NCBI GenBank assembly: GCA_965198025.1
Contig: OZ240237.1
Span: forward strand, 473,038-537,037
Reading direction: 5' to 3'
Source of the DNA: Terriglobia bacterium
GTDB lineage: Bacteria; Acidobacteriota; Terriglobia; 2-12-FULL-54-10
DNA: 64,000 bases
Both the position numbers and the translations under genes were made by a program. Positions 256 through 45,500 of this stretch are shown in pieces (the stretch's first letter is position 1; the number at the start of each line of letters is the position of its first letter). The notes beneath the pieces were generated by a model. It did no database searches and had not been told where the DNA came from. It saw only the letters and a list, made by a program, of their open reading frames with translations.

Positions 256-552
256 TCATTGTTCCGAATCGCCTGCCGGAACGTCCAAGAGTTCCGCTTG
301 TGTGCGGGCGGTCTGGTTCCCAGGGTGATAACGTAATTCGGCAGCGAACTCGCGGCGAACTCCTTCGCGGTCCCCCTGCTGTAGCAGAACCAGAACCAGA
401 TGAAAGCCTGTGCCAGCCGGATTGCGAGCGATGGCGTTGCGAAGGGCGGCGGCCGCTTCGGGCAGGCGGTTTTGGCGGAAATAGGTAAGCCCTAGATAGG
501 CGTACGCATCTCCATCCTGGGCGGAAGAGTCGCTGGACCCAAGCCCTTTCAT
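256..552 (-). CDS. small TPR-repeat protein (98 aa), translationally coupled (ATGA overlap) to the upstream GT-C/TPR gene
   Basis: ORF track 256..552. TPR-like sequence AYAYLGLTYFRQNRLPEAAAALRNAIARNP. Its start overlaps the stop of 549..2327 by 4 nt. Confidence 0.3.
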   Translation of the reverse strand: MKGLGSSDSSAQDGDAYAYLGLTYFRQNRLPEAAAALRNAIARNPAGTGFHLVLVLLQQGDREGVRREFAAELRYHPGNQTARTQAELLDVPAGDSEQ

Positions 553-2327
553 TCCCGGGTTGACCCTCCCGGTTGTGACATGGCGGCTTCCCGCGCGGCC
601 CTCAAATCCCCCAGGAGCTCTCCGACATCGGCGGCGTCACCCCAGTAATACGTAAGAAACGAAGCGTAACGGGCGCGCTGTCCCGTCATAGTCAGCGAGA
701 CGTTCAAGGCTCTCCGAGCCGCTTCGAGGTCTCCTCTCTTCCAGTGAAGAAAGCCTTCGATCACCCACAGACGAGGATTGCCAGGGTTCATCCTTTTTCC
801 CGTTTCAATGGCGGCGGCTGCCTCATCCAGATTACCTTGCAGGATCCGGGCGCGGGCCAGCCCGGCATAGGCGTCCGTAACCCAGGGAATATTCTCATGG
901 GCGGCCAACGGGTCGGCGAGAGCAAGCTGGTAGAAACGGACTGCCTCCGGGTAATTCCTGGCATTGAGAGTCAGGGCGTCTGCTAGATTCACCATGTAGT
1001 TGGGAGCAGGGCGCAGCGTCACCGCTCTCACGAGAAGGTCTCCTCCGCGTTGCGGCTGTCCGGCATTCAACAGAGCAAGCCCGAGGTTTTCGGCGCAATA
1101 GGCCGAGTTGGGGCAGGTGGGATAGGTGGTTTCCCAGAGAGTCAGGTCATCCTTCCACACCGGGAGGCGGACCGCCGTTCCCCAGGCAAACGTCACCAGC
1201 ACCGCGCATACGGCGGCTTCCAGCCCCCAGCGATGCCAGTCCTGTCGGGAGCGATCCAGGAGATGGAAGTAGAAACTGCTCGCCAGGACAAACAAGCCGA
1301 TGATCGGAGCGTAGAGATAGCGGTCGGCAACCCAGATTCCGAAGGGAATGATTTGCAAGACCGGTGCGAGAAACACCAGGAACCACAGGGCCCAGAACTG
1401 AATGCGTCGGTCGCTGCGGAGCAGAAATCCCAAGAGGGCCATAAGGGCAATCCACAGGGCTGCCAGAGCCGCTGTAAACTCCAGTGTCACGGGGAAAACG
1501 TACCAGGCGGAAAGGGGATGGGGGACCAGGGCCATTTGAATGTAGAAGAAAATGAAGAGTGGCAGGTTCATCAAGTGGACGCCGAGCCCGCCGTAATAGC
1601 CACTCTCGCCCACCCATTGCGTTCCCATGAAGCTCGCCATGTGAACGGCTACCATGAGAACGGAGATCAGAAAGAAACAAACCAGGCTAGCCACCGTTTT
1701 CCTGTCGAACGGACGCCGCTGCCGGTAGTCCCACAACAGAAAGATTGCCGGCGCCACGACGGTGTTGATCTTGGCAAGGAGCGAGAAAGCCAGGAACAAG
1801 GCGCACAGGACGCCGGCCCCCCAGCTTCCCCGTTCGCGCAACCGTAGAAAAGCAACGAAGGAGAGAAGAAAGAACAAGAAGGCCAGAGTGCTCTTGGTCT
1901 CCGAGACCCAAGCAACGGTCTCGACGCCGGTGGGGTGAACCGAATACAGCAGGCTGGCGAGCAAAGCAATGCGGGGTGACTCGATCCTTGCCAGGACCCC
2001 ATACAGAAGCAAAACGCAGGCGAGATGAAGAAGCAGCTGCGCCAAGTGGTATCCGAACGGCTCGGCGCCGACGATCTGGTAGAGCAGGGCCAGAAACGTG
2101 TGATGGACGGGAGCATAGTGCCCCAGATATGTATGGGTCCAGACGGCCTTCAGTTGCGCTTCCGTCAATCCCTGGACGCGGTAATTCGTGGCGACGTAAT
2201 AGAAATCATCCCAGACGAACTCGTAATATAGTGCGGGGGCGTAAAGAGCGAAACTGATGCTCAGCAGAAAGCCGTAGGGTAGGAGCTTGCCCCAGGAATT
2301 CGGACGCGCTACAAAGTCGAATACCAT
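549..2327 (-). CDS. GT-C family glycosyltransferase, PMT/TMTC-like (polytopic membrane N-terminal domain, DUF1736-like FVWDD motif, C-terminal TPR repeats); paralog B
   Basis: 592-aa ORF with multiple hydrophobic helices. Motif YYEFVWDDFYYV...LGHYAPVHHTFLAL...GYHLAQLLLH is typical of the TMTC/PMT_2+DUF1736 family. C-terminal approx. 200 aa contain TPR-like repeats. About 45-50% identical to the adjacent paralog. Confidence 0.65.
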   Translation of the reverse strand: MVFDFVARPNSWGKLLPYGFLLSISFALYAPALYYEFVWDDFYYVATNYRVQGLTEAQLKAVWTHTYLGHYAPVHHTFLALLYQIVGAEPFGYHLAQLLLHLACVLLLYGVLARIESPRIALLASLLYSVHPTGVETVAWVSETKSTLAFLFFLLSFVAFLRLRERGSWGAGVLCALFLAFSLLAKINTVVAPAIFLLWDYRQRRPFDRKTVASLVCFFLISVLMVAVHMASFMGTQWVGESGYYGGLGVHLMNLPLFIFFYIQMALVPHPLSAWYVFPVTLEFTAALAALWIALMALLGFLLRSDRRIQFWALWFLVFLAPVLQIIPFGIWVADRYLYAPIIGLFVLASSFYFHLLDRSRQDWHRWGLEAAVCAVLVTFAWGTAVRLPVWKDDLTLWETTYPTCPNSAYCAENLGLALLNAGQPQRGGDLLVRAVTLRPAPNYMVNLADALTLNARNYPEAVRFYQLALADPLAAHENIPWVTDAYAGLARARILQGNLDEAAAAIETGKRMNPGNPRLWVIEGFLHWKRGDLEAARRALNVSLTMTGQRARYASFLTYYWGDAADVGELLGDLRAAREAAMSQPGGSTRE

Positions 2328-2360
2328 GCGATTGCTCGGGGCTTGCCGCGGAATTCCTGG

Positions 2361-4106
2361 CTAGTGGCCCTCGGTGTCCCGGATGGCGCGCAAGAATTGC
2401 GCGACCTCCGGGGGATGGCCCCAAATTGCATAGATGTAGATTCTCGCGTCCGGTGGCCAGCCGGCGAGTTCAAGAGCCTTTTCTATCGCTGCGCGGGCTG
2501 CGGCGACGTTATCTTCTTTCCACGACAGGAAGGCTTTTGCGATCCAAAGGCTCGGCTCCGCAGGATTGCTCTCCATCCCTTGGTCCAAGGCACGGCGGGC
2601 CTGGGGCAAGTCGCCTGCCAGGACATAAGCGCGCGAGAGCTTGGCGTAAATGGGAGCACGCCCCGCTCCCCCACTCTTGGAAATCGCCGCCGAGTAGGTG
2701 ATGGGGCCCTGGCGAAAATCGCGGGCGACCGTAAACGCGTCGCCGAGCTGGACCAAGTGCCCGACGGCATCACGCAGTTCCACTGCCCGAATCAACTCCC
2801 GAATCCCGCGCTCTGTCTGTCCATCTTCAATCAGTGCCGCCCCCAGGCTGACGTGGCAGTAGGCGGATGTGTCGCAGGTGGGAGTGGTAGCTTCCCAGAG
2901 TGTCACATTGTTTCTCCATACCGGCACGTGTGAAAGAGAGCTCCAGCCGAACAACAGGACGATGGCGCCCAGCACGAGATCCAGCCCCCAGGCTGCTGTG
3001 CGATTCGAGAAGCGTTCCTGCAGCCAGAAGAATCCCATGCCGGCCAGCACGAACGCTCCGATGGCTGGTATGTACAAGTATCGGTCCGCCACCCAGATGC
3101 CGAACGGAAACAACTGCAGCACCGGGACCAGGAACACCAGGAACCAAAGCCCCCAGAAGCGGACGGCACGATTGCCTCGTGAAAGCAGCAACAAAAGGCC
3201 GAACAGAGCAACCCAGGACAGGACCAGCACCCAATTCCACGACTCATAGATCGGGAACAAGCGCCAAGCTGACAACTGATACGGGTAGACGACCATTTCG
3301 ACGTAGAACCACACGAAACGAGGGAGGTTTATCAAGTGCACCCAGAAGCTCCCGTAGTAGGAGGTGCCGTCTACCTCTCCGGATCCATAGAAACTGCCGA
3401 GATGAACCGTTACGAGGGCCGCGCTAAGAAGGAAGAACACGGCGTGGCTGCGAGCGCGGCCCCAGGTGAGAGAGCTTTGCCGGTAGTCCCACAGGAAGAA
3501 AATTGCCGGAGCTACCACGGTATTGATCTTGGAAAGCATCGAAAGGGTCAGGAAGAAACCACACCAGAAACCGTAATTCCATTGCGCCGTTTCCCGCATG
3601 CGCAGAAAGAACCAGAGGGATATCAGGAAGAACAGAAATGCAAGCGTGCTTTTGGATTCCGAGACCCAGGCAACCGTCTCAATGTTCGGCGGATAGAGTG
3701 CGAAGAGCAGGCTGGCCAAGAGCGCGATTCGCGCCGCCGCCATCTTGGTTAGCAGGTGATACAGAAGGCAGAGACAGGCTGCATGGACCAGAAGGTGGGC
3801 CAGGTGATACCCGAAGGGATCAAAGCCGGAAACCGAAAAAACCAGGGCCAGAAACGTCATATGGACCGGAGCATAGTGTCCCAAATGGGTGCTGCTCCAA
3901 ATCTCCCGCATACGTTCGAGGGAAAGTTCCTGGATGCGGAAGTTCCGGCCGATGTAGTAGGTGTCGTCCCAGACGAACTGGAAGTACACGGTCGCGCCGT
4001 AGATTGCGAACGTGACGCTCAGCAGCAAGGCGTAGGGGAGAAGGGCTTGCCAGGAGCAGAGGCGTTCGGGGAATTCGAGGAACGAGGTTTGGCGATTCAT
4101 TACCAC
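2361..4106 (-). CDS. GT-C family glycosyltransferase, PMT/TMTC-like with C-terminal TPR repeats; paralog A
   Basis: 581-aa ORF with the same architecture and motifs (VYFQFVWDDTYYIGRNFRIQ, HLGHYAPVHMTFLAL, GYHLAHLLVH). Tandem with 549..2327. Confidence 0.65.
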   Translation of the reverse strand: MVMNRQTSFLEFPERLCSWQALLPYALLLSVTFAIYGATVYFQFVWDDTYYIGRNFRIQELSLERMREIWSSTHLGHYAPVHMTFLALVFSVSGFDPFGYHLAHLLVHAACLCLLYHLLTKMAAARIALLASLLFALYPPNIETVAWVSESKSTLAFLFFLISLWFFLRMRETAQWNYGFWCGFFLTLSMLSKINTVVAPAIFFLWDYRQSSLTWGRARSHAVFFLLSAALVTVHLGSFYGSGEVDGTSYYGSFWVHLINLPRFVWFYVEMVVYPYQLSAWRLFPIYESWNWVLVLSWVALFGLLLLLSRGNRAVRFWGLWFLVFLVPVLQLFPFGIWVADRYLYIPAIGAFVLAGMGFFWLQERFSNRTAAWGLDLVLGAIVLLFGWSSLSHVPVWRNNVTLWEATTPTCDTSAYCHVSLGAALIEDGQTERGIRELIRAVELRDAVGHLVQLGDAFTVARDFRQGPITYSAAISKSGGAGRAPIYAKLSRAYVLAGDLPQARRALDQGMESNPAEPSLWIAKAFLSWKEDNVAAARAAIEKALELAGWPPDARIYIYAIWGHPPEVAQFLRAIRDTEGH

Positions 4107-18592: not shown

Positions 18593-19681
18593 CTAATTGT
18601 TGGCGGCTTCTGCCCGGCTGATTTCCCCCGGCGCGTGGCGATAGATGCTGGCGAAGTTCGTCAGGGGGGACTCATCGAGCCACATCAGCTTGGCGGGGTT
18701 GTCCTGGAGCATCGTCCGCACGTCCGCTTCCGTCATGCCGAAGCCGAGCAGCGCGCGGATGAACACGCGCATCCCGTCGATGGAATCGAGATGCAACACT
18801 TGGCCGAAATCGCTCCCGATGATGCAGCGCTCGGGACCGATCTCCTGCATCGTGCGGATTGTCTCCATGGGGTCGGCGATGGGTTGGTAGAGGCTCGGGA
18901 TCATAGGCTGGCAGTACGTCCCTACGTAGACGCCCAGATCGGCTAGTTGTTTCATTTCATCGAGCAGCAGCTTGTTCAATTCGAGTAGCGGATGGTCAAG
19001 CGTGGCCCGGACGCCCAATTCCTTGGCCTTCTTCGCGAGCGGCAGGAGTTCCTGGAAGTCCGTGTGGCCGAAGCCGATGCCGACTTTCTTCGCAGCGGCC
19101 ATTTCCATGATCTGGCAAACTTCCGGCAGCACCACCCCGGCGTCGCTCACCAGGCGAACGCCGCCGCGCTCGGGATGTCCCGCGCCGCGCCAGAACCCGA
19201 GCGATGTGAATGTCGGGAACCAGATCATCTTGCAGTTCGGGTACTGCAGAGCGACCCGGACGGCCTCCGGGTTCATGCCCAGGCAGGTGCCGGTGCCGCC
19301 GTAGACTTCGACGCGGTGGGTCAGCTCGCCCTTTTCGATCAGATGATCGATGTGCCGCTGGACCAGGTACGCAGCGTTGGCGCTGACATTCCAGTGGTCC
19401 TTGAAAGCCAGCGCGCGCATCCCGGCCTTCGAAGCGTCGATCGCGATCTGGATCATGTCCTGCGCCCGGTGCACGAAATCCGGATAGGCATGGATGTGGC
19501 AGTCGATCGCTCCCTGGAGCAGCTCGTTCTCGACACCCGGATGAATCTTGACGATCTCCGGGTTGTCCTTGAGCATCTGGTAGAAATAGTCCTTGGCGTT
19601 CAACTGCCGCACGCGCTCCACAGTGAGTACTCGGCCCACGAGCAACTGTTGCGCTGCTTCGGAATCGGCAAAATCACACAT
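18593..19681 (-). CDS. amidohydrolase-superfamily metal-dependent hydrolase (TIM-barrel)
   Basis: N-terminal metal-binding HxH (CHIHAYPD) and downstream conserved His/Asp residues. 362 aa. Confidence 0.5.
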   Translation of the reverse strand: MCDFADSEAAQQLLVGRVLTVERVRQLNAKDYFYQMLKDNPEIVKIHPGVENELLQGAIDCHIHAYPDFVHRAQDMIQIAIDASKAGMRALAFKDHWNVSANAAYLVQRHIDHLIEKGELTHRVEVYGGTGTCLGMNPEAVRVALQYPNCKMIWFPTFTSLGFWRGAGHPERGGVRLVSDAGVVLPEVCQIMEMAAAKKVGIGFGHTDFQELLPLAKKAKELGVRATLDHPLLELNKLLLDEMKQLADLGVYVGTYCQPMIPSLYQPIADPMETIRTMQEIGPERCIIGSDFGQVLHLDSIDGMRVFIRALLGFGMTEADVRTMLQDNPAKLMWLDESPLTNFASIYRHAPGEISRAEAANN

Positions 19682-19753
19682 GGCAGTTCTCCTTATCTTG
19701 TCTTGTTATCCCGAGGAACGGGGCGACGAGGGATCGAATCTTCGCTTTTTGGT

Positions 19754-20758
19754 CTATGCCGTTTTTGTCCACCCTTCGATGAAACGGCGGGCGTCGTCGA
19801 TGGCCGGTTCGGAGCACGGCACGTATGGAATCGAAAGGCGCGTCACGCCAGCTTCAGCGATGGGGCCCAGCCGGTCGCGCACTTCCTCGACCGACGTCGC
19901 CGGAATCACTGGCAGCTTGTCCATGTACTCGTCCGTGAGCGCCTGCACTGCGGCCTTGAAGCCGTTGGCGCGAAACGCTTCCTGGATCGCCGTTACCTCC
20001 GGCTCGAACCCGCAATCCTTGAGCATCGTGCTGTAGTGATCGGCGATGTTGTAAAAGGTCAGCACCTGTCGCAGCCTCTTGCGGGCCACCGCGCGGTCCG
20101 GGTGCACCGAGACGCGCACCTTGGCCATGATCTCGACTCTGTCCGGGCCGCGCCCCGCGTCGGTAGCTCCCTGGCGCACACGCTCTGCGATCTCGCGAAT
20201 CTTCGATGGAATCCCCATGTTGATGCAGACGCCCTCGGCGATCTCCCCGACCAGGTGGGTCATCTTCGGCCCCAGGCCGGCCAGAAACACCGTCAGCGCG
20301 GAATGGCGGGGCTTCCAGGATAGCTGGAAGCGCTTGCCGGTGGAGTACGTTTCGCCTTCGTACTCCACGCGCTCACCGGAGGCGACCTTGCGTACGATCT
20401 CGACGTACTCCCGGATGCGTCGCAGCGGGCGGTCAAACACGCCGCCGTGCCACGCTGCAATGGTCTTGTTCGCGACGCCGAGGCCCAGCATCAAGCGGCC
20501 GTTCGAGAGGTCTTGCAGCGTCGCCGCCTGAATCCCCATTGTGACCGGGCTGCGGCCGTATATATGGTAGATGGCGCTGCCGACTTTCAGGGTCTTCGTT
20601 CGCGCAGCCATGCCGGAGATCACTACAAGCGGGTCGGTGCTGTTCGATTCGCCTTTCCAGAACGTCCCGAATCCGGCGTCTTCGACGAGCGGGGCAAGCT
20701 CCAGCAGCCCGTCGGCGGGATAGTGCGCGACGGAGTTGAGCTCAATGTCGTAAACCAC
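19754..20758 (-). CDS. LLM-class (luciferase-like) flavin/F420-dependent oxidoreductase
   Basis: 334 aa. Resembles luciferase-like monooxygenase fold sequences (GLGVANKTIAAWHGG..., C-terminal region). Confidence 0.65.
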   Translation of the reverse strand: MVYDIELNSVAHYPADGLLELAPLVEDAGFGTFWKGESNSTDPLVVISGMAARTKTLKVGSAIYHIYGRSPVTMGIQAATLQDLSNGRLMLGLGVANKTIAAWHGGVFDRPLRRIREYVEIVRKVASGERVEYEGETYSTGKRFQLSWKPRHSALTVFLAGLGPKMTHLVGEIAEGVCINMGIPSKIREIAERVRQGATDAGRGPDRVEIMAKVRVSVHPDRAVARKRLRQVLTFYNIADHYSTMLKDCGFEPEVTAIQEAFRANGFKAAVQALTDEYMDKLPVIPATSVEEVRDRLGPIAEAGVTRLSIPYVPCSEPAIDDARRFIEGWTKTA

Positions 20759-27441: not shown

Positions 27442-28735
27442 TTATCCTGCAAACTGCTCGAACAGTTCTTCCTTCGTGACGGGCTTCTGCATGCCATGCG
27501 CCATGTCGCGCAAGAGATATTTCCCTTCAGCCAGCTCCTGGTCGCCAATCAACAAAACGTGACGCACACCCAGCCGCGAGGCAAGTTCCAGAGCCTTCTT
27601 GAGCTTCGCCGCATCGGCCAGCATCTCCACGGCGATGTTCCCGGCTCGCAGCTCGCGCGCGAGTCCGGCTGCGCAACGGTAAGCGTTTTCTCCGAGCCAG
27701 ATGATGAAGAGCGGCGAATCCTCTGCGCTCGACCCGGATTCTGCGAGCTTCGAAAGCACCAGCGCGAAGCGGTCTTCTCCAATCGAAAAGCCGATCCCCG
27801 GCGCCGCCGGCCCCCCAAGCATCTCGGAGAGCCCGTCGTATCGCCCACCCCCCAGCAGCGAGTCCTGCGCCCCCAACGCGCCATGCACGATCTCGAACGT
27901 CGTCCGCGTATAGTAATCGAGGCCCCGAACCAGTCGAGGGCGAACCGTAAAGGGAATCTCTCGGTTACGCAAATAGCCGTGCAAGGTATCGAAATGTTCT
28001 CTACATTCGCTGCACAGCAAATCCAGGATCGTTGGTAACTTGTCAATGACGGGCTGATCCTCGGGTGCCTTGCAATCGAGCACGCGCAGCGGATTCGTCC
28101 TGCTGCGCCGTTGGCAGTCGCCGCAAAGCTGCTCGCGGACTTTGCTCAGCTCGCCGCGTAGAGCATCGAGATACTGCGGCCGGCAATTCGAGCAGCCCAC
28201 GGAATTGAGAAATACGGTGAAGCCCGTTAGTCCCAAGCGCCCGAGCAGCTCGATCAACAGTTCCAGGATTTCGGCGTCCACCGCGGGGCTTTCCGAGCCG
28301 ATGGCTTCCGCTCCGATCTGATAGAACTGCCGGTAGCGTCCTTTCTGCGGGCGCTCCCGCCGGAACATCGGACCGATGTAGTAGAACTTCTTGATGCCCG
28401 GTCGCTCCCACATGCGGTGCTCGATGTAGGACCGCACCACCGACGCCGTCGCCTCCGGGCGCAGCGTGAGCGACTGCCCGTCGCGATCCTCGAAGCGGTA
28501 CATCTCTTTCGTGACGATATCGGTCTCCTGCCCGACGCCGCGCGCGAACAACTCTGTGCCCGACGCCGCGCGCGAACAACTCTGTCGGCTCAACGAGTGG
28601 TGTGCGAATTTCCTGATAGTTGTACGCGGTGAAGACTTCTCGCGAAACTCTCTCGATACGGTTCCACAGTACGGACTCCGGCGGCAGGATGTCGCGCATC
28701 CCTTTTACGGTTCGCAATGTTTCTTTGCGTGTCAT
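27442..28735 (-). pseudogene. hisS: histidine--tRNA ligase, reading frame broken by a 28-bp tandem duplication (28531..28586)
   Basis: The N-terminal 60 aa ([18 protein letters not shown]...[12 protein letters not shown]) are in ORF 28043..28735. The rest of HisRS ([35 protein letters not shown]...) is in ORF 27442..28593. The peptide TELFARGVG is encoded twice by a direct 28-nt repeat (28 is not divisible by 3). Confidence 0.8.
28531..28586. repeat. 28-bp perfect-but-one tandem direct duplication (cccgacgccgcgcgcgaacaactctgtg x2) inside hisS
   Basis: Read directly: 28531-28558 and 28559-28586 differ only at the last base. Confidence 0.85.
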
Positions 28736-33877: not shown

Positions 33878-35152
33878 TTAGGTCCCCTCATCCCACGACG
33901 CCAGGTATTTTTCTTGCTCCGCGCTGAGCCGGTCGATCTTCACCTTCATGGCCTCGAGCTTGATCTGCGCCACCAAGCGGTCGATCTCCTCCGGCACTGG
34001 GTAGACCTTCTTCTCGAGCTGGTCGGCATTCTGGGTCAGGTGCTCGATGCACAGGGCTTGGTTGGCGAAGCTCATATCCATGACGGCGGCCGGATGGCCT
34101 TCGGCGCTCGAGAGGTTCACGAGACGGCCGTCCGCCAGCAGGTAAATTCGCCGGCCGTCCGCCATCCGGTGCTCTTCGACAAATTGACGGATCTGGCGCC
34201 GGCTGGCTGCCATTTTCTGCAGTTCGGGGATTGCAATCTCCACGTTGAAGTGTCCCGAGTTGGCGAGCAATGCCCCGTCCTTCATGCATTCGAAATGCTC
34301 TTGCGCCAGCACGCTCTTGTTCCCCGTGGCACTGATGAAGAGGTCACCGATCTTGGCCGCTTCAGCCATGGGCATGACCTGGAAGCCGTCCATGATGGCT
34401 TCCAGCGCCCGCGTCGGATTCACTTCCGTTACGATCACGTGCGCGCCGAGGCCGTGCGCCCGCATGGCGATCCCGCGTCCGCACCACCCGTAGCCGCCCA
34501 CCACCACCTTCAGCCCCGCGATCAGCACGTTGGTCGCCCGCAGTATGCCGTCAAGCGTCGACTGCCCGGTCCCGTAGCGGTTGTCGAACATGTGCTTGGT
34601 GTCGGCGTCGTTGACGGCGATGATGGGATAGCGGAGGACGTTTTGCTCGGCCATGCTGCGCAGGCGGATCACGCCCGTGGTGGTTTCCTCGGTTCCGGCG
34701 CGGATATCGCCGGCCAGATCCGTGCGTTTGGTGTGGGCCAGCGAAACCAAGTCGGCTCCGTCGTCCATCGTGAAGTGCGGCTTGTGCTGCAGCGTGGCGT
34801 CGAGGTGCGAATAGTAGGTGTCGTTGCCCTCCCCTTTGATGGCGAAGACGGGAATGCCGTGGTCACGGACCAGGCTGGACGCCACGTCGTCCTGCGTGCT
34901 CAAGGGATTCGACGCGCAGAGCATCACTTCCGCCCCGCCCTTTTGCAGTGTCAGAATGAGGTTGGCGGTCTCCGTCGTGACGTGCAGGCAAGCCGAGATG
35001 CGGATGCCCCGCAGCGGCTGCTCCTGGTCGAACCGCTCGCGGATCGAGCTGAGCGTCGGCATGAACTGGTCTGCCCATTCGATGCGCAGGCGGCCCTCCT
35101 CTGCCAAAGCCGGATCTCTTACGTCGGACGGAATGTTTGTCGTTGTGGACAT
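33878..35152 (-). CDS. ahcY: adenosylhomocysteinase
   Basis: 424 aa. NAD-binding GYGWCGRG-like motif ([15 protein letters not shown]). Conserved SAHH N-terminus. Confidence 0.9.
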
Positions 35153-35223
35153 AATTCGATGGTCTCCCGTGTTCCTTGCGATTGCTCAATTCTGAGAATG
35201 GGTCCCTGCGGTTCGCCGCAGGT

Positions 35224-36408
35224 CTACCGGGCGGCGGCTTTGGCTTCCGGTTCCGATGCAAGTCCGGCGGCCTGGCGCAGTCTCTCTGCCTGGTTCGTGG
35301 CCTCCCAGGTAAAGTCTGGCTCGCTGCGCCCGAAGTGGCCGAATGCAGCGGTCTGCTCGTAAATCGGCCGCCGCAGCTGCAGGTACTCTATGATTCTTTT
35401 CGGCGTGAGGGGAAAGGTCTCGCGGATCAGGGCCACCAATTTTTCTTCCTCCACCACTCCGGTGCCAAACGTGTCCACCATGACCGAAACCGGTTCGGCA
35501 ACTCCGATCGCGTAAGCGAGTTGAACTTCGCAGCGCTCTGCCGCCCCGGACGCTACCACGTTCTTGGCAACGTGCCGGGCCATGTAGCATGCCGAGCGAT
35601 CCACCTTGGAGGGGTCCTTGCCGGAGAAGGCTCCGCCCCCATGTCGCCCCATGCCGCCGTAGGTGTCCACAATGATCTTGCGTCCCGTCAGTCCGGTGTC
35701 GCCGGCAGGCCCGCCGGTCACGAATCGCCCCGTCGGATTGATGTGGATCTGAGCCTCGGAAAGCATCGCGTCCGGCAGCACCGGGCGGATCACTTCTTCC
35801 CGGATGGCTTCTTGGAGCGTTTTGTCTGAAACGCTTTCGCTGTGCTGTGAGGAGACAACCACCGCCGTCACCCGCACCGGCTTGCCGTCCTCATAGAGCA
35901 CCGAGACTTGCGATTTCCCGTCCGGCCGCAGGAAATCCGCTGTTCCGCTGCGGCGGACCTCTGAAAGCCGCCGAACCAGCCGGTGGGCCAGCATGATCGG
36001 CAGCGGCATCAATTCTTCCGTTTCATTGCACGCGTATCCGAACATCATGCCCTGATCGCCGGCCCCGCCCGGATCAACGCCCATGGCGATGTCGGGCGAC
36101 TGCTCATGCACCGCCGTGAGCACCCCGCACGTGTGCGCGTCAAAGCCGAATTTCGCGCGGTTGTAGCCGATCCTCTCGATCGTCCGGCGGGCGATCTGTG
36201 TGTACTCCACGGGCGCCTGGGACGTGATCTCGCCCGCGATCAAGACCAGACCCTTGGTCAGGACCGTTTCACAGGCCACACGCCCGCAGGGGTCCTGCCC
36301 CAGGACTGAATCCAGAATGGCGTCTGAGATTTGGTCCGCGATCTTGTCCGGATGGCCTTCCGTCACGGATTCGGATGTGAACAAATAACTTCGCGCGCGT
36401 TGCGACAC
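35224..36408 (-). CDS. metK: S-adenosylmethionine synthetase
   Basis: [25 protein letters not shown] and [16 protein letters not shown] motifs. GTG start with GGAGG SD. Confidence 0.9.
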
Positions 36409-36541
36409 AATCGTACCTCCTCAAACTCAATGGACCGAACGGATCGACAGTCTCCGGGCTGGACCAGGCTGAACCCCGAGTGGAACCTTAGATGAGCGAG
36501 AGTAGCAGAGTTCCCCGCAAAGCGTCAAAGCAAATTTGCTC

Positions 36542-37020
36542 AGTAGCGACAGGCCTCCAGGCCTGTCCCCTTCGAGCACAGGCCCGCCAGGGCCCTGTGC
36601 TCCAACGCAGCTGCTTCTGCTGTCGCTTTGCATTACAGCAGAGAGTAAAGCAGCCTCAGCCTGCCGTGTCATCCCGAGGAGCGTTGAGCGAAGGCGAAGG
36701 GCGACGAGGGATCTGCTCTTCCCACGATCCGCTATTCCCTCCCTCCTCTCCTTATCCCCAAGGCAAGTAGCGACAGGCCTCCAGGCCAGTCCCCTTCGAG
36801 CACAGGGCCGCCCAGGGCCCTGTGTTCCAACGCCAGATGCTTCCGCTGTCGCTTTGCATTACAGCAGAGAGTAAAGCAGCCTCAGCCTGCCGTGTCATCC
36901 CGAGGAGCGTTGAGCGAAGGCGAAGGGCGACGAGGGATCTGCTCTTCCCACGATCCGCTATTCCCTCCCTCCTCTCCTCATCCCCAAGGCAAGTAGTGAC
37001 AGGCCTCCGAGGCCAGTCTG
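36542..37020. repeat. tandem direct repeat, approx. 225-bp unit x 2.1 copies, each unit containing at least three GC-rich inverted repeats (hairpins) and a CU-rich tail
   Basis: Units begin agtagcgacaggcctccaggcc at 36542, 36766 and 36992 (third copy partial). Within each unit, gacaggcc/ggcctgtc, gagcacaggccc/gggccctgtgctc and tctgctgt/acagcaga arms are reverse complements. The ORFs 36492..36770, 36536..36874 and 36822..37157 repeat the same peptide twice, confirming the duplication. Confidence 0.85.
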
Positions 37021-37153
37021 GATCGACAATCTTTCTTCGACATTGCTGCAGCCGTAGACGCCGGATTGGCTCCCGTGCCCTCGGCAGGCATGCCCGTTGC
37101 CTTGACTGCTTTTCCCGCCGTGTGTTAGCTTACTTTTCCGCTTTTTCCTTTGA

Positions 37154-38281
37154 GTGAGGTTGCTGAAATTGGCTTCCCCCACCGCTGCGCTGCGCAAGAC
37201 CGCGTTGAACCAGGCCCACCGCCGCATGGGCGCGCGCATGGTCGAGTTCGGCGGCTGGGACATGCCCGTTGAGTACTCCGGAATTGTCCCCGAGCACATC
37301 GCCGTGCGGACTCGGGTCGGGCTGTTCGATGTGAGCCACATGGGAGAAATTGAGGTGCGCGGCGAGGGCGCGCTGCCTCTCCTGCAGAATGTCACCTGTA
37401 ACGATGTTTCCCGTCTGCAGATCAGCCAGGCGCAATATTCCGCCCTCATGAATGAGCGCGGCGGAATCGTGGATGATCTGCTCGTGCACCGCGTCGGGGA
37501 AGAGGACTATTTTCTTTGTGTCAACGCTTCACGCCGCGAGGCCGACTACGATTGGATCGCCGCCCACAACCAGGCCGGTGCGGAAGTCCGCAACACCAGC
37601 GATGAGTACACGCAGCTCGCCGTGCAGGGGCCGCGCAGCCTCGCTGTTCTCCAGCCGCTCACTTCCGTCGCGCTGGCGGAGCTCAAGTATTATTGGTTCG
37701 CCCGCGGCACGGTCTGCGGCACGGAGTCCCTCGTCGCCCGTACCGGTTACACCGGGGAGGACGGCTTCGAGGTCTATTTCCCGGTCTCGGAATCCGAGCG
37801 CATCTGGAACTCCATCCTGGAAGCCGGCAAGGCCGAGGGAATTGTGCCCTGCGGATTGGGCGCCCGCAATACGCTCCGGCTCGAGGCTGGCATGCTGCTC
37901 TACGGCCACGATATGAATGAGGATACCACTCCGCTCGAGGTACGCCTGCGCTGGCTCGTGAAGCTCCGGAAGGGACCTTTTCTGGGGCGTGATGTTTTGC
38001 AGCGGCAAAACGAGCAAGGAGTCCCTCGCTCCCTCGCCGCCTTCGAGCTGCGCGCCCGCGGCATTGCGCGTGACGAAGCTCCCGTTCTGCTCGGCGGCCG
38101 GACGATCGGCAAGGTCACCAGCGGTTCGTATGCTCCGTTCCTCAAGCGCAGCATCGGTTTCGCTTCGCTTCCGAGCGAGCATGCCGCAGTGGGCCGGGAA
38201 ATTGCAATCGACATTCGCGGAACGCGCGCTGCCGCCGAAATCGTGCCGGCGCCCCTTTACCGCAGGCAAAAGAAGAATTGA
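37154..38281 (+). CDS. gcvT: glycine cleavage system aminomethyltransferase T
   Basis: FGGWDMPVEYSGIVPEHIAVRTRVGLFDVSHMGEIEVRG, the canonical GcvT N-terminus. Confidence 0.85.
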   Translation: MRLLKLASPTAALRKTALNQAHRRMGARMVEFGGWDMPVEYSGIVPEHIAVRTRVGLFDVSHMGEIEVRGEGALPLLQNVTCNDVSRLQISQAQYSALMNERGGIVDDLLVHRVGEEDYFLCVNASRREADYDWIAAHNQAGAEVRNTSDEYTQLAVQGPRSLAVLQPLTSVALAELKYYWFARGTVCGTESLVARTGYTGEDGFEVYFPVSESERIWNSILEAGKAEGIVPCGLGARNTLRLEAGMLLYGHDMNEDTTPLEVRLRWLVKLRKGPFLGRDVLQRQNEQGVPRSLAAFELRARGIARDEAPVLLGGRTIGKVTSGSYAPFLKRSIGFASLPSEHAAVGREIAIDIRGTRAAAEIVPAPLYRRQKKN

Positions 38282-38318
38282 TTAACTAAATCGTCACGCG
38301 AGAGAGAGAAGATCACAG

Positions 38319-38483
38319 ATGGCAAAACTCCAGAGGGTATACAAGACAGGAACTGAGTACCAAATCACGGGTCCGGGAGAGAAATCCCGTCGCGTGCGTT
38401 TCGTTGGCAAATTCAAGATCGACAGAAAAGAGGTTCTGATGTTCCGCCCCGTCAGAAAGGCCAAGAAACAAACTAGGAAGTAG
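38319..38483 (+). CDS. small basic hypothetical protein (54 aa) in an AT-richer spacer between gcvT and gcvH
   Basis: Manual translation: MAKLQRVYKTGTEYQITGPGEKSRRVRFVGKFKIDRKEVLMFRPVRKAKKQTRK. The local GC of the 38282-38571 spacer is visibly lower (about 48%) than the flanks. Confidence 0.3.
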   Translation: MAKLQRVYKTGTEYQITGPGEKSRRVRFVGKFKIDRKEVLMFRPVRKAKKQTRK

Positions 38484-42567: not shown

Positions 42568-45500
42568 GTGACGACGGAAGAGGCCGTGCCGTTCCAAATC
42601 GTTGAGATCAGCCATATTTGGGGCGATGTTTTTGGAAGCGACGGGGAGGCCGGCGTCCAGCCGCCGGTAACCGCGCCGGGAGAAGCTCGGACAGGCCGGG
42701 AAGCGGTAAAACCGCTGACCGACTGGATCAACGTTGTGGTGGGAACGCAGTCGATGGAGCAATCCCCGACGGCCGACGATCCGAGCGACACGAAGACGGC
42801 GCGGCTTGCAAAGCAAATACAGTCGATCGAGAGGTCCGCCTCCCTGGACCATCCGTTCCCGAAAGCGGCAACGCCGATCTCGCCCGGACAGCCCACCACC
42901 TTTAGTCTGGGGCCGGTTGACAACCCGACACTCTTCTCTGGGGATTATTCATTCCGGCTGCTGGTTCCCGAGAACGCCACCAGCGTAACCGTTACGCTGG
43001 AATCCTCTGTCGACGTGGATTTGTATGTCCGCTATGGAGAAGACACTGAGCTTCAGGATGGGAGAGTCGTCTCGGACTATTCCTCCGAGGGACCCACGGG
43101 CAACGAGGAGATCGTTATCACCCCTCAATCCGACCGGCCGCTTCACGCTGGAACCTATTTTGTCTCGATAGTCCTCTTTGATACGGGCGTCACCGCCATG
43201 TGCACGCTCACGGTGACAGTGGAACGCGACGATGCTCCTCTTCCGCCGATCAGCGGCGGCCCGCTCACACCCGGACAGCCCGCCGCCTTCCGCCTGGGAC
43301 CGGTTGAGAGCCCGACGCTCTTCACTGTGGACCACTCATTCCGGATGGAGGTTCCCACGGGCGCCACCCGCGTAATCTTCACGATGGAATCCGTCGATCC
43401 CGATGTCGACGTGGCTCTGTTAGTCCGTTTTGGAGAGGACAACAGGATTCAGAACGGGAGGCCTGTATTTGACTACGGCTCCCAGAACCCCACGGGCAAC
43501 GAACGGGTCGGCATCACCCGACGATCTGATCCGCCGCTTCGCGCCGGAACCTACTTTGTCTCGGTACTCGTCTTTGATACGGGTGTCGTCGCCGAGGGCA
43601 CGCTCACGGCGGCAGTGGAGACGGACACCACGGACTGTCACCTTGACGTGACCTGCTACCTAGAATGGTCGAATTCCGCATCAGGAGTGGCGCGGATTTA
43701 CTATGAGACGAGCAAGGGCAGTTTTGCCTGCTCGGGCACGCTGCTCAACAACAGCCGGGAGGACTTCACCCCCTACTTCCTCACCGCTGCCCACTGCGTG
43801 GCTACCGAGGCGGAAGCGCGGAGCGTGGTAGCGCACTGGTTTTATCAGACCCAAACCTGCAACGGCGAACTGCCCGATTTTCTGACCGTGCCGAGAACCA
43901 TGGGCGCGAGTCTGCTTTCCACTTTGGGCGACGGCCCCATCGAAGGAAGAGAGAACCCCGACGGCGATATGACACTGTTGCGGCTCGAAGGCGATCTACC
44001 GAATGGCGTCTGGTTCCAGGGATGGAACGCGAACCCCCAACCTTTCGGCGCGCAGGTCACCGGCATTCATCACCCCGGTAGCGATGATTGGGACTTCTTC
44101 AAACGGATTTCCTTCGGTCAGATCATTCCCGACCCAGCATCTAGAATTCCCGCCGATGCCTACGCCTTCGTCTCCAATACGCAAGGCTACACGGAGGGGG
44201 GATCTTCCGGGTCCGCCCTCTTTAGCAGTCCTGGAACCGTAGTCGGAGCGCTTGGTTTTGGGCGGGGCAATGATGCAGAAGCAGAAAATGCCTGCCGGAC
44301 CGGCAGCGCTCGTCATGACGGCTACACGCACTTTTCTGTTTTCTATCCCCATATCCGGCCATTCATCGACAGCACCTTGCCGGAGATAACCGGCGGCCCG
44401 CTCCCGCCCAGGCAACCCGCTGCCTTCCGTCTGGGACCGGTTGACACCCCGATGCTGTTCTCCGGGGATTCTTCATTCCAGGTGGAGGTTCCCGAGAACA
44501 CCTCCCGTGCAACTTTCACGCTGGAATCCGTCGATCCTGATGTCAACGTGGATTTGTATGTCCGCTATGGGGAGGACAACGCCATTCAGGGTGGGAGAGT
44601 CGTCTCGGACTATTCCTCCACAGGACCCACGGGCAACGAGCAGATCGTCGTCACCCCCCAATCCGACCCGCCGCTTCGAGCCGGAACCTACTTCGTTTCG
44701 CTGATGCTCCGCACTACGGGCGCCGTCGCTGAGGTCACGCTCACGGCTGAGTTCGACGCCCCCGCTCCTACGCCGCCGGGAGGTCAGATCTATTACTTTC
44801 CCCATCTTGCCGTGGGGGCAGGTTGGCAAACCACGATCACCTATATCAACTACTCTACGCAGCAGGTGACCTGCCGGACCGATTTCCTTGCCGATGACGG
44901 AAGTCCGCTGCTGGTCTCGTTTCCGGGACGGGGAATGGTGGACAACCGGACCGACGATCTGCAACCAGGGGAGTCCATTCATGAGGAGACCAACGTGGCG
45001 TTGAGCGCTCCGCTGGTGCCCGGCTGGGCGCGGGCCACCTGCTCCGGGCCGGTGAAGGCCAGCCTCTTATATCGCCGGTTTGAGGGAGGGGTGCCCACCG
45101 GAGAAGCCGGAGTCAATGCAACGGCCGTTGCGGCCACCCGCTTTGTCACCTTTGCCGAACAGGGAGAAGGTAATTCTGGAACCGGAGTGGCCTATGCCAA
45201 CCCCTCCGCCACAGAAGCCCGCATCACGTTTACGGTCCGGGACACGGCGGGGCAGATGCTGGCCAGCGTCGTTCGGACCCTGTTGCCCGGAGGACATGGC
45301 GCGCAAAATATGGAGGGCTTGTTTGATCTCAGTAGCTTTGCCGGATCGCTCAAAATCACCTCCACGGAGCCCATCGTCAGCCTGTCGCTGAATTTTGAAG
45401 CCGCTCCCGTATTTTCCTCCTTGCCTCCGGGGGAAACTCCGGCGATGGTGATTCCCGCGACAGGTGCTCCGGATTTGGTGGTCCAGACTCCTTCGGTAAG

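What the first reader, a model, noticed from the sequence alone, without database searches (positions are those of the whole stretch)
36542..37020. Approx. 225-bp hairpin-rich unit tandemly repeated 2.1x in the divergent metK/gcvT intergenic region, possibly a duplicated structured RNA
The roughly 740-bp gap between metK (minus) and gcvT (plus) is mostly occupied by two near-identical copies (about 95%) and a partial third copy of a unit. Each unit holds a perfect 8-bp inverted repeat (gacaggcc-tcca-ggcctgtc) and a 12-bp bulged GC hairpin (gagcacaggccc-gcca-gggccctgtgctc). It also holds a third hairpin (tctgctgt-cgctttgcatt-acagcaga) and ends in a CU-rich stretch (ttccctccctcctctcc), which on an RNA would resemble an anti-SD-like pyrimidine tract. 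No canonical SAM or glycine riboswitch consensus could be recognised in the flanks. The element is therefore not an obvious known riboswitch, although it sits between genes that are riboswitch-controlled in other bacteria. It could be a REP/BIME-like element, a tandemly duplicated sRNA, or a protein-binding array.
Basis: seen in the sequence. Interest (0 to 1): 0.58.

Follow-up and report, generated by a model that had tools for sequence, protein, structure and literature searches.

The report
Young hairpin-repeat duplication between metK and gcvT
The 226-bp tandem repeat is real, but it is a recent, lineage-specific duplication of palindromic repeat DNA that replaced a lost gene between two conserved promoters in a soil acidobacterium, and it is not a riboswitch or small-RNA gene.

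Summary
There are 2.1 head-to-tail copies of a 224/226-nt unit at 36542-37018, 96% identical, between divergent metK and gcvT. The array is identical in a second strain's assembly, and an independent short-read contig supports its right junction.

The structured-RNA reading is not supported. There is no Rfam match. The array lies between two conserved promoter-proximal blocks, outside both leaders. The unit is not conserved. A relative with 95% GcvT identity has only one short, degenerate version in the same slot. More distant relatives (81-88%) have a TPR gene there, sometimes with a HigB/HigA pair. The window still carries that TPR gene's last 14 codons (37016-37057) directly after the array.

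Each unit is a mosaic: a GTAG-headed hairpin (H1), two further hairpins, a CT-rich tail, and one solitary arm of a widespread YGTC-tagged inverted-repeat family. That family is REPIN/CGTC-REP-like and occurs in at least 120 metagenome contigs. H1 brackets each body, so unequal recombination or slippage between H1 copies best explains the duplication. The other modules were found nowhere else.

Verdict: ordinary, fast-evolving repeat DNA. It counts as a new member of a known kind, and interest is low.

The parts
36542..36765 (+). Repeat unit 1 (224 nt): H1, H2, H3, linker, YGTC-tagged family arm and CT-rich tail
   Evidence: TRF; BLAST of the unit against the window; alignment of the copies
36766..36991 (+). 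Repeat unit 2 (226 nt). It has 8 differences from unit 1, and 7 of them lie in the first 85 nt.
   Evidence: binomial p = 0.006 for the clustering
36992..37018 (+). Partial third copy, H1 only (AGTAGTGACAGGCCTCCGAGGCCAGTC). Its last three bases, GTC, double as the Val codon of the TPR-gene stump.
   Evidence: junction read from the sequence and from the L204 alignment
36542..36567 (+). H1: aGTAG head, one base, an 8-bp stem GACAGGCC/GGCCTGTC and a 4-nt loop. It is repeated at 36766-36791 and 36992-37018, so it brackets each 200-nt body as a direct repeat.
   Evidence: DNA fold gives -8.4 kcal/mol, z = -4.0; tagged-hairpin scan; stem scan
36574..36602 (+). H2: a 12-bp GC-rich hairpin with a bulge (second copy at about 36798-36827, without the bulge and with one G.T pair)
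   Evidence: DNA fold gives -13.3 kcal/mol, z = -4.6
36616..36642 (+). H3: an 8-bp stem with an 11-nt loop (the second copy at 36842-36868 has a C.A mismatch)
   Evidence: z = -1.8, weak
36661..36723 (+). Solitary arm of the widespread YGTC-tagged inverted-repeat family (TGTC-ATCCCGAGGAGCG-16 nt-GGCGACGAGGGATC-TGC). The second copy is at 36887-36949.
   Evidence: nhmmer profile built from metagenome instances, E = 5e-11; pattern matches
36724..36765 (+). CT-rich tail of the unit (core CCCTCCCTCCTCTCC at 36737-36751; second copy core at 36963-36977)
   Evidence: no relatives found elsewhere
37016..37057 (+). 3' stump of a deleted TPR-protein gene. It reads V-WIDNLSSTLLQP-stop, compared with KVWIDNLSLKPLP-stop in L204.
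   Evidence: Syntenic DNA alignment of window 37016-37200 to L204 4246-4428 (76%, E = 1.6e-30); 17 of 17 identical bases in TGGATCGACAATCTTTC and the peptide match
36409..36541 (-). Conserved metK-proximal block. It holds a candidate promoter, TTGACG (36529-36524), N18, TACTCT (36505-36500), a leader of about 85 nt, and the palindrome AGCAAATTTGCT (36530-36541) that abuts the array.
   Evidence: Conserved in four species. The promoter assignment was made by eye and is an inference; the consensus scanner calls nothing here.
37097..37168 (+). Conserved gcvT-proximal block. It holds a candidate promoter, TTGACT (37103-37108), N18, TAGCTT (37127-37132), and a leader of about 30 nt, which is too short for a riboswitch.
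   Evidence: Conserved in six species down to 81% GcvT identity. The promoter assignment is an inference (calls nothing).
19700..19736 (+). A second locus in the window with a solitary arm of the same YGTC-tagged family. It lies between two minus-strand genes.
   Evidence: nhmmer E = 1.7e-11

Best explanation
The array is a young, lineage-specific tandem duplication of non-coding, hairpin-rich repeat DNA. It is not a conserved functional RNA.

In relatives with 81-88% GcvT identity, the space between the conserved metK and gcvT promoter blocks holds a TPR-protein gene, sometimes with further accessory genes including a HigB/HigA pair. In the lineage of this window, that gene was lost and left only its last 14 codons.

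The slot now contains a mosaic of small palindromic modules. These are a GTAG-headed hairpin (H1), two other hairpins (H2, H3), one solitary arm of a widespread YGTC-tagged REPIN/CGTC-REP-like inverted-repeat family, and a CT-rich tail.

The ancestral arrangement was probably H1-body-H1. Unequal homologous recombination or replication slippage between the two 26-nt H1 direct repeats then produced H1-body-H1-body-H1. Later point changes were concentrated in the hairpin-rich 5' third of the unit, possibly together with partial gene conversion of the remainder.

What is shown: the array is real; its position relative to the conserved blocks; its absence from relatives; the TPR stump; and the family membership of one module.

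What is inferred: the promoter assignments, the recombination mechanism, and the lack of a dedicated function.
For: Reality of the array.

Position: homology with the closest species representative (L002) stops at window 36540 and resumes at about 37097. Both flanking blocks are conserved in 4-6 species and contain TTGAC-N18-TAnnnT motifs.

Non-conservation: the unit is absent from 80 Acidobacteriota gcvT loci. The 95% relative L202 has a 227-bp slot with one degenerate H1 and one family arm carrying a different inner hairpin, without H2, H3 or the CT-rich tail and without a duplication. L203 and L002 carry an unknown gene, a TPR gene and HigB plus an HTH antitoxin in the slot, and L204 carries the TPR gene alone.

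TPR stump.

No sign of function: no Rfam match; no promoter or terminator call inside the array; no Pfam hit or homolog for its ORFs.

No structural selection: of 8 differences between the copies, 2 break stem pairs and none is compensatory on both sides.

Module membership: the sub-motif profile hits three places in the window at E of about 1e-11. The family occurs in at least 120 metagenome contigs, carries a YGTC tag in 97 of 106 instances, and has an inverted partner in 68 of 97.

Architecture: H1 flanks each body as a direct repeat. Di Nocera et al. 2013 (PMC3733652) describe REP clusters in which units are reiterated in tandem together with flanking DNA.
Against: Only about 73 kb of the source genome could be searched (the window plus L206). 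A low-copy dispersed family of the whole unit, or of H1, H2 and H3, therefore cannot be excluded.

The collection-wide test for the unit body used a single exact 24-mer and one ORF frame, which is of limited sensitivity.

No expression data were available, so transcription of the array is not excluded.

The whole unit folds better than shuffled sequence on both strands (z = -3.7 and -3.1). Any set of palindromes would do this, but an RNA would as well.

The array is identical in two strains that differ at 16 flanking sites. That is compatible with either constraint or recency.
Confidence: 0.7

Rival explanations
1. The array is the product of a REP-type single-strand DNA transposition system. 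In this reading H1, a GTAG head plus a hairpin, is the site cleaved and rejoined by a RAYT-like tyrosine transposase. The head-to-tail reiteration of H1 with its flanking DNA would then be a by-product of that enzyme rather than of homologous recombination.
For: H1 fits the published GTAG-REP format, with a GTAG tag, an 8-bp stem and a 4-nt loop. [quoted passage not shown] Each unit also holds an arm of a second tagged family. The slot turns over quickly, as expected for mobile DNA.
Against: GTAG-tagged hairpins are not enriched in the window (11 observed against 10.2 in shuffles), and none shares H1's stem. No H1 copy was found in 1.94 Mb of held DNA, apart from a dubious look-alike in L070. 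No RAYT gene was identified, and none was searched for systematically. Head-to-tail arrangements are the rare type for REPs. REPs are typically found between convergent or co-directional genes, not divergent ones.
Confidence: 0.15
2. Each unit encodes a small regulatory RNA or a cis-acting structured RNA that was duplicated in tandem, possibly linked to one-carbon or SAM metabolism because of its neighbours.
For: The unit is rich in hairpins and folds better than shuffles on both strands. One stem change gives a G.T pair that is tolerated only on the plus strand. The neighbouring genes are riboswitch-controlled in other phyla (established knowledge).
Against: There is no Rfam match at E <= 10. 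No promoter-like or terminator-like site was called within 36350-37250. The array lies upstream of both conserved promoter blocks rather than in a leader. The unit is not conserved even in the 95% relative and is absent from 80 other Acidobacteriota loci. Two of the 8 differences between copies disrupt stems.
Confidence: 0.05
3. The array acts at the DNA level as a spacer, an insulator or a protein-binding array between the two divergent promoters. It could, for example, absorb transcription-driven supercoiling or bind a nucleoid protein, as proposed for the binding of gyrase and IHF to BIMEs in E. coli.
For: It sits exactly between two divergent promoter blocks and separates them by 556 bp, against 227 bp in L202. 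It contains repeated cruciform-capable palindromes. It is identical in two strains.
Against: Close relatives do without it, or carry unrelated sequence or whole genes in the slot, so no specific sequence is required there. No repeated short motif typical of an operator array was found beyond the hairpins themselves. There is no experimental handle.
Confidence: 0.08
4. The tandem duplication is an assembly artefact.
For: The source is a metagenome-assembled contig, and tandem repeats are a classic site of misassembly.
Against: The copies differ at 8 positions. The array is identical in a second assembly from a strain with 16 flanking SNPs. A short-read Logan contig from another run reproduces the copy-2-specific variant, the partial third copy and the junction at 100% identity, and it breaks inside the 134-nt block shared by the copies.
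Confidence: 0.02

Closest known systems
REP clusters and GTAG-tagged REPs (Di Nocera, De Gregorio and Rocco 2013, BMC Genomics 14:522, PMC3733652); REPIN/RAYT systems (Bertels and Rainey 2011)
   Same: H1 has a GTAG head followed by a short perfect stem-loop with an 8-bp stem and a 4-nt loop. The array reiterates this unit in tandem together with flanking DNA, as described for REP clusters. The sequence is intergenic and lineage-specific.
   Different: H1 was not found as a dispersed multi-copy family: there is no other copy in the window or in any held DNA. The units are head-to-tail rather than in inverted pairs. The location is between divergent genes. No RAYT gene was identified.
CGTC-tagged REP superfamily (CGTC-1 to CGTC-4; includes Neisseria dRS3 and Rickettsia RPE-4 and RPE-6; PMC3733652)
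   Same: The sub-motif family carries an unpaired CGTC or TGTC tag in 97 of 106 instances, and A-T pairs at the first two stem positions. Tags-outside inverted dimers predominate (68 of 97). It lies mostly between convergent or co-directional genes (48 of 50) and shows no strand bias.
   Different: The arms are 28-39 nt or longer, not 8-9-bp stems with 4-5-nt loops. A single arm does not fold stably (z = +1.8). The tail is CGC or TGC rather than CCA. The published families were not reported from Acidobacteria. The window's three copies are solitary arms.
BIMEs (bacterial interspersed mosaic elements) of E. coli
   Same: Both are mosaics of palindromic units and linker motifs in an intergenic region, with variable copy number.
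   Different: BIMEs alternate REP orientation (Y and Z types) with defined short linkers and occur at hundreds of loci. Here all modules point the same way, the 'linker' is 200 nt of unique sequence, and only one locus is known.
SAM and glycine riboswitches
   Same: Only the gene neighbourhood is shared (metK, gcvT).
   Different: No covariance-model match was found. The array lies upstream of the candidate promoters. The gcvT leader is only about 30 nt long.

Membership tests
SAM riboswitch or glycine riboswitch (Rfam) | Match to the family covariance model at or near the gathering score | tested here: not met
   cmscan of 36200-37400 on both strands at E <= 10 found only a chance sR36 hit at 13 bits. 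No family reached its gathering score anywhere in the window.
SAM riboswitch or glycine riboswitch (Rfam) | Located in the 5' leader, between the promoter and the start codon of the regulated gene | tested here: not met
   The array lies between the two conserved promoter-proximal blocks. The promoter positions are inferred from conservation and TTGAC-N18-TAnnnT motifs.
Bacterial sRNA gene or conserved structured RNA | Own promoter and terminator | tested here: not met
   No promoter-like or terminator-like site was called in 36350-37250. The scan is consensus-based, so this is weak evidence.
Bacterial sRNA gene or conserved structured RNA | Conservation with compensatory base changes in relatives | tested here: not met
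   The unit is absent from 80 relatives. L202 at 95% identity lacks H2, H3 and the tail. Differences between the copies break pairs at 36564 and 36618.
Bacterial sRNA gene or conserved structured RNA | A discrete transcript | not testable with these tools
   No expression data were available.
GTAG-tagged REP (for H1) | Terminal unpaired GTAG next to a short stem-loop (stem 5-13 bp, loop 2-20 nt) | tested here: met
   H1 is aGTAG-c-GACAGGCC-tcca-GGCCTGTC. The format is as defined in PMC3733652.
GTAG-tagged REP (for H1) | Multi-copy family dispersed in the genome | tested here: inconclusive
   There is no other copy in the 64-kb window, in a 9.4-kb extension, or in 1.9 Mb of related and metagenomic DNA. 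About 99% of the source genome could not be searched.
GTAG-tagged REP (for H1) | Association with a RAYT (IS200/IS605-type tyrosine transposase) gene | not tested
   The window's ORFs were not screened systematically. RAYT genes are single-copy, so a 64-kb sample would be uninformative.
BIME | REP units in alternating orientation, separated by short conserved linker motifs, at many loci | tested here: not met
   All three H1 copies are on the same strand at 224-226-nt spacing, and only one locus is known.
CGTC-tagged REP superfamily (for the ATCCCGAGG...CGAGGGATC module) | Unpaired CGTC (or TGTC/CCTC) tag, and A-T pairs at the first two stem positions | tested here: met
   TGTC occurs 69 times and CGTC 28 times among 106 distinct instances, although the tag was not part of the search pattern. 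The module runs ATCCC...GGGAT. The array copy has TGTC.
CGTC-tagged REP superfamily (for the ATCCCGAGG...CGAGGGATC module) | Stem of 8-9 bp, loop of 4-5 nt, CCA tail | tested here: not met
   A single arm is not a stable hairpin (z = +1.8). Only 5 Watson-Crick pairs close it. The tails are CGC, TGC or TCG.
CGTC-tagged REP superfamily (for the ATCCCGAGG...CGAGGGATC module) | Predominantly tags-outside inverted dimers, located between convergent or co-directional genes | tested here: met
   68 of 97 instances have an inverted partner 9-97 nt downstream. 48 of 50 classifiable intergenic copies are not between divergent genes (the gene calls are crude).
MITE | Terminal inverted repeats and a target-site duplication bounding the element, in multiple copies | tested here: not met
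   The ends of the 556-bp insert (AGTAGCGACAGG... and ...GGCAGGCATGCCCGT) share no inverted repeat. No second copy was found.
CRISPR array | Short direct repeats separated by unique spacers of similar length | tested here: not met
   The 26-nt H1 repeats are separated by 200-nt 'spacers' that are about 97% identical to each other.

The most novel reading that the evidence does not exclude
The 226-nt unit could be a nascent composite mobile element. In this reading the GTAG-headed H1 hairpins at its boundaries are substrates of a RAYT-like single-strand DNA transposase in an uncultured Solibacteraceae-like acidobacterium. The head-to-tail array would record that enzyme's activity, and the embedded YGTC-tagged arm would belong to a still undescribed REPIN-type family that extends the CGTC superfamily into Acidobacteriota and other high-GC soil bacteria.
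Probability: 0.12. Interest if true: 0.45.

Novelty: new member of a known kind. Interest (0 to 1): 0.2.

Why it matters
The finding matters mostly as a negative. A hairpin-rich tandem repeat between two genes that are riboswitch-controlled in other phyla looks like a regulatory RNA but is not one. Comparative data show it to be fast-evolving filler in a variable slot.

Two modest positives remain:
- The locus is a clean natural example of a gene (the TPR gene) being replaced by palindromic repeat DNA and then tandemly duplicated, with intermediate states preserved in relatives.
- One module exposes a widespread YGTC-tagged inverted-repeat family in soil and sediment metagenomes. It has no Rfam entry and is not among the published CGTC-REP families. 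It may deserve its own census, including a search for its transposase.

Tried and rejected
- **Riboswitch or known RNA:** rejected by cmscan at E <= 10 on the region and at gathering score on the whole window.
- **Coding potential:** the four ORFs across the array have no Pfam hit. The 112-aa ORF has no relatives in 5.8 billion protein clusters.
- **Dispersal of the unit:** the exact 24-mer TTTGCATTACAGCAGAGAGTAAAG gave 0 hits in 185,579 species genomes and 0 in JGI metagenomes. BLAST against phages and plasmids found nothing. BLAST and fuzzy-module scans of 1.3-1.9 Mb of related DNA found nothing convincing.
- **H1 as part of an abundant REP family:** a structural scan showed no enrichment of GTAG- or YGTC-tagged hairpins over shuffles.
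- **The sub-motif as a stand-alone hairpin held by tandem G.A pairs:** this was my own by-eye idea. It is not supported by the nearest-neighbour folding model, and I replaced it with the inverted-dimer reading.
- **Covariation in the family's inner hairpin:** weak and not clearly above the controls, so I did not use it.
- **Presence/absence polymorphism of a family copy between L202 and the window:** abandoned, because that segment is not syntenic.
- **Literature search by literal sequence strings:** returned only unrelated primer hits.
- **Extension past the right end of the window:** failed, because the protein was not on record.
- **DGR-type adenine-specific mutagenesis:** the differences between the copies show no adenine-specific pattern.

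Full report

Yes. Tandem Repeats Finder reports a single array at 36542-37018, with period 226, 2.1 copies, 96% matches and score 878. BLAST of unit 1 against the window finds unit 2 at 96.5% identity and a 27-nt partial third copy.

Pfam confirms the flanking genes. MetK is at 35224-36408 on the minus strand, and GcvT starts at 37154 (or, more likely, at the TTG at 37169) on the plus strand.

The array is not an assembly artefact, for three reasons:
- The two full copies differ at 8 positions.
- A second assembly of a strain with 16 SNPs in the 7-kb flanks (L001) has exactly the same array.
- A short-read Logan contig from another sequencing run (L209) matches 36949-38383 at 100%, including the copy-2-specific base and the partial third copy. 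It ends inside the 134-nt block that is identical between the copies, which is where a k-mer assembler should break at a true repeat.

**2. Anatomy**

The array reads H1-body-H1-body-H1.
- H1 is 26 nt: aGTAG, one base, then the 8-bp stem GACAGGCC/GGCCTGTC with a 4-nt loop. Its DNA fold has z = -4.0.
- The 200-nt body contains H2, a 12-bp GC-rich stem (z = -4.6), and H3, an 8-bp stem with an 11-nt loop (z = -1.8).
- A linker follows, then a 47-nt segment TGTC-ATCCCGAGGAGCG-N16-GGCGACGAGGGATC-TGC, then a CT-rich tail.

Seven of the 8 differences between the copies lie in the first 85 nt (binomial p = 0.006). Two of them destroy a stem pair (36564 in H1 and 36618 in H3), one converts G-C to G.T, and none is a two-sided compensatory change. 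There is therefore no sign of selection on the hairpins.

**3. Source organism and relatives**

The window comes from an uncultured Acidobacteriota of class Terriglobia. Its nearest species representative is a Solibacteraceae MAG with 88% GcvT identity. The window's GC content is 60%.

The unit is absent from all 80 Acidobacteriota gcvT loci retrieved, 1.26 Mb in total. Only the closest relatives keep metK next to gcvT.

**4. Where the array sits**

Homology between the window and L002 stops at window 36540, one base before the array begins. It resumes at about 37097.
- The metK-proximal block (36409-36541) is conserved in four species. On the minus strand it contains TTGACG (36529-36524), an 18-nt spacer and TACTCT (36505-36500), preceded by the palindrome AGCAAATTTGCT.
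- The gcvT-proximal block (37097-37168) is conserved in six species down to 81% GcvT identity. It contains TTGACT (37103-37108), an 18-nt spacer and TAGCTT (37127-37132).

I read these as the two promoters. This is an inference, because the strict sigma-70 scanner calls nothing here. On that reading the metK leader is about 85 nt, the gcvT leader is about 30 nt, and the array lies upstream of both promoters and in neither leader. That position, together with the absence of any Rfam match at E <= 10, removes the riboswitch or leader-RNA reading.

**5. The slot is hypervariable, and the array replaced a gene**

The slot's content differs between relatives:
- L002 and L203 (88%): 3.6 kb with a 422-aa unknown protein, a TPR protein, a HigB-like toxin and an HTH antitoxin.
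- L204 (85%): only the TPR gene.
- L205 (81%): metK is not adjacent at all.
- L202 (95%, the closest relative found): 227 bp.

The L202 slot holds one degenerate H1 (AGTGACGACAGGCCTCTGGCCAACGTC). This is followed directly by a copy of the ATCCCGAG...CGAGGG module with a different inner hairpin, the shared segment GAAGGCGAAGGGCGACGAGGG-TCTG-TCTTCCC, and then unrelated sequence. It has no H2, H3 or CT-rich tail, and no duplication.

In the window, the 78 nt after the array are homologous to the 3' end of the L204 TPR gene and its downstream region. Window 37016-37200 aligns to L204 4246-4428 at E = 1.6e-30, and TGGATCGACAATCTTTC is identical at 17 of 17 bases. Window 37016-37057 still reads V-WIDNLSSTLLQP-stop, against KVWIDNLSLKPLP-stop in L204. 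No TPR homolog exists elsewhere in the window.

The array therefore occupies the place of a deleted gene of about 1.2 kb. The last three bases of the third H1 coincide with the Val codon of the stump.

**6. One module belongs to a large family**

The motif ATCCCGAGGAnCG-N(1-30)-GGCGACGAGGGATC occurs three times in the window. Two are in the array, and one is at 19708-19735 between two minus-strand genes. Shuffles give 0-1 matches, and the 1.26 Mb from relatives gives none.

The median GC of those contigs is 68%. IMG/VR gave no hits. A profile built from the metagenome instances recovers exactly the three window copies at E of about 1e-11. It also finds further copies elsewhere in L202 and L204.

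Features of the family:
- 97 of 106 distinct instances carry TGTC or CGTC just 5' of ATCCC, although the tag was not part of the search pattern.
- 68 of 97 have an inverted partner arm 9-97 nt downstream, with the tags facing outward.
- By a crude gene call, 48 of 50 classifiable intergenic copies lie between co-directional or convergent genes, and there is no strand bias.
- A single arm does not fold stably (z = +1.8).
- Covariation in the variable centre is weak.
- No Rfam family matches complete elements.

These properties match the general description of CGTC-tagged REPs and REPIN-like dimers in Di Nocera et al. 2013 (PMC3733652). The shared points are the tag with its TGTC variant, the A-T first stem positions, the tags-outside dimers, and the preference for convergent or co-directional gene pairs.

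They do not match the four published families, which have 8-9-bp stems, 4-5-nt loops and a CCA tail. That paper lists CGTC repeats from five phyla, and Acidobacteria is not among them. The window's copies are solitary arms.

**7. The rest of the unit is unique as far as can be seen**

H1, H2, H3, the linker and the tail have no convincing counterpart in 1.94 Mb of held DNA or in a 9.4-kb extension of the source contig. A body 24-mer has no exact match in 185,579 species genomes or in the JGI metagenomes. Phage and plasmid records give no match. There is no ORF-level relative.

GTAG-tagged hairpins are not enriched in the window, with 11 observed against 10.2 expected.

The limitation is that only about 73 kb of the source genome was accessible, so a low-copy family cannot be excluded.

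**8. Best explanation**

The array is a young, lineage-specific tandem duplication of a mosaic of palindromic repeat DNA. It sits in a fast-evolving slot between two conserved divergent promoters.

The H1 direct repeats that bracket the body are the natural substrate for unequal recombination or slippage (H1-body-H1 becoming H1-body-H1-body-H1). Di Nocera et al. note that REP clusters typically consist of units reiterated in tandem with flanking DNA.

The duplication predates the split of the two sampled strains, which have identical arrays. It postdates the split from L202. I see no evidence for a dedicated function, and I put this explanation at 0.7.

Rivals:
- RAYT-type ssDNA-transposase origin of the array: 0.15.
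- DNA-level spacer or protein-binding role: 0.08.
- sRNA or structured RNA: 0.05.
- Assembly artefact: 0.02.

**9. Novelty and score**

The array is a new member of a known kind, namely a REP-like cluster or an intergenic tandem duplication. A specialist would not be surprised by it.

The gene-replacement history is neat. The YGTC-tagged family may merit a separate census, but neither opens a long-standing question. Interest is 0.2.

Noticed in passing
window 19700-19736: A solitary arm of the same YGTC-tagged ATCCCGAGG...CGAGGGATC family lies in the 72-bp gap between two minus-strand genes (18593-19681 and 19754-20758). It is antisense to them.
   Followed up: yes
It has no Rfam entry and is not among the four published CGTC-REP families. 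Its host taxa and its transposase are unknown.
   Followed up: partly
window 36530-36541: A perfect 12-bp palindrome, AGCAAATTTGCT, lies immediately upstream of the candidate metK -35 hexamer. It is conserved in L002 and nearly conserved in L202 and L204, so it is a candidate operator for a metK regulator.
   Followed up: partly
window 36409-36500 and 37133-37168: The metK leader (about 85 nt, conserved, with indels between species) and the gcvT leader (about 30 nt) contain no Rfam riboswitch. In this acidobacterial lineage metK and gcvT appear to be controlled without SAM or glycine riboswitches.
   Followed up: partly
L002 858-4495; L203 1-3534: In the 88% relatives the same metK-gcvT slot carries an unknown 415-422-aa coiled-coil-like protein, a TPR protein and a HigB-like toxin with an HTH_3 antitoxin. 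The slot is therefore a hotspot for accessory genes.
   Followed up: partly
window 35200-35227 (minus strand): A 7-bp hairpin, ACCTGCG-GCGA-CGCAGGT, begins one base after the metK stop codon, in the gap before the AdoHcyase gene (33878-35152). The stop codon plus the preceding G reads GTAG. It could be an intercistronic stabiliser or attenuator hairpin.
   Followed up: no
window 28529-28584: A perfect 28-bp tandem duplication, TGCCCGACGCCGCGCGCGAACAACTCTG x2 (family D15 in the repeat scan).
   Followed up: no
window 42874-44746: Three sets of internal direct repeats (132-300 nt, 74-81% identity, spacings of 387-396 and 1137 nt). They suggest a gene with repeated domains, or tandem paralogs.
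   Followed up: no
window 549-4106: Two adjacent paralogous genes on the minus strand (592 aa and 581 aa; PMT_2 glycosyltransferase family with TPR according to the L206 annotation) share 72-75% DNA identity in blocks offset by 1758 nt.
   Followed up: no
L070 11130-11157: An H1-like hairpin, GACGGGCCTTCAGGCCCGTC, lies just downstream of gcvT in an unrelated Acidobacteriota MAG. It differs from H1 by a two-sided (compensatory) A-T to G-C change. It may be chance or a distant relative of H1.
   Followed up: no
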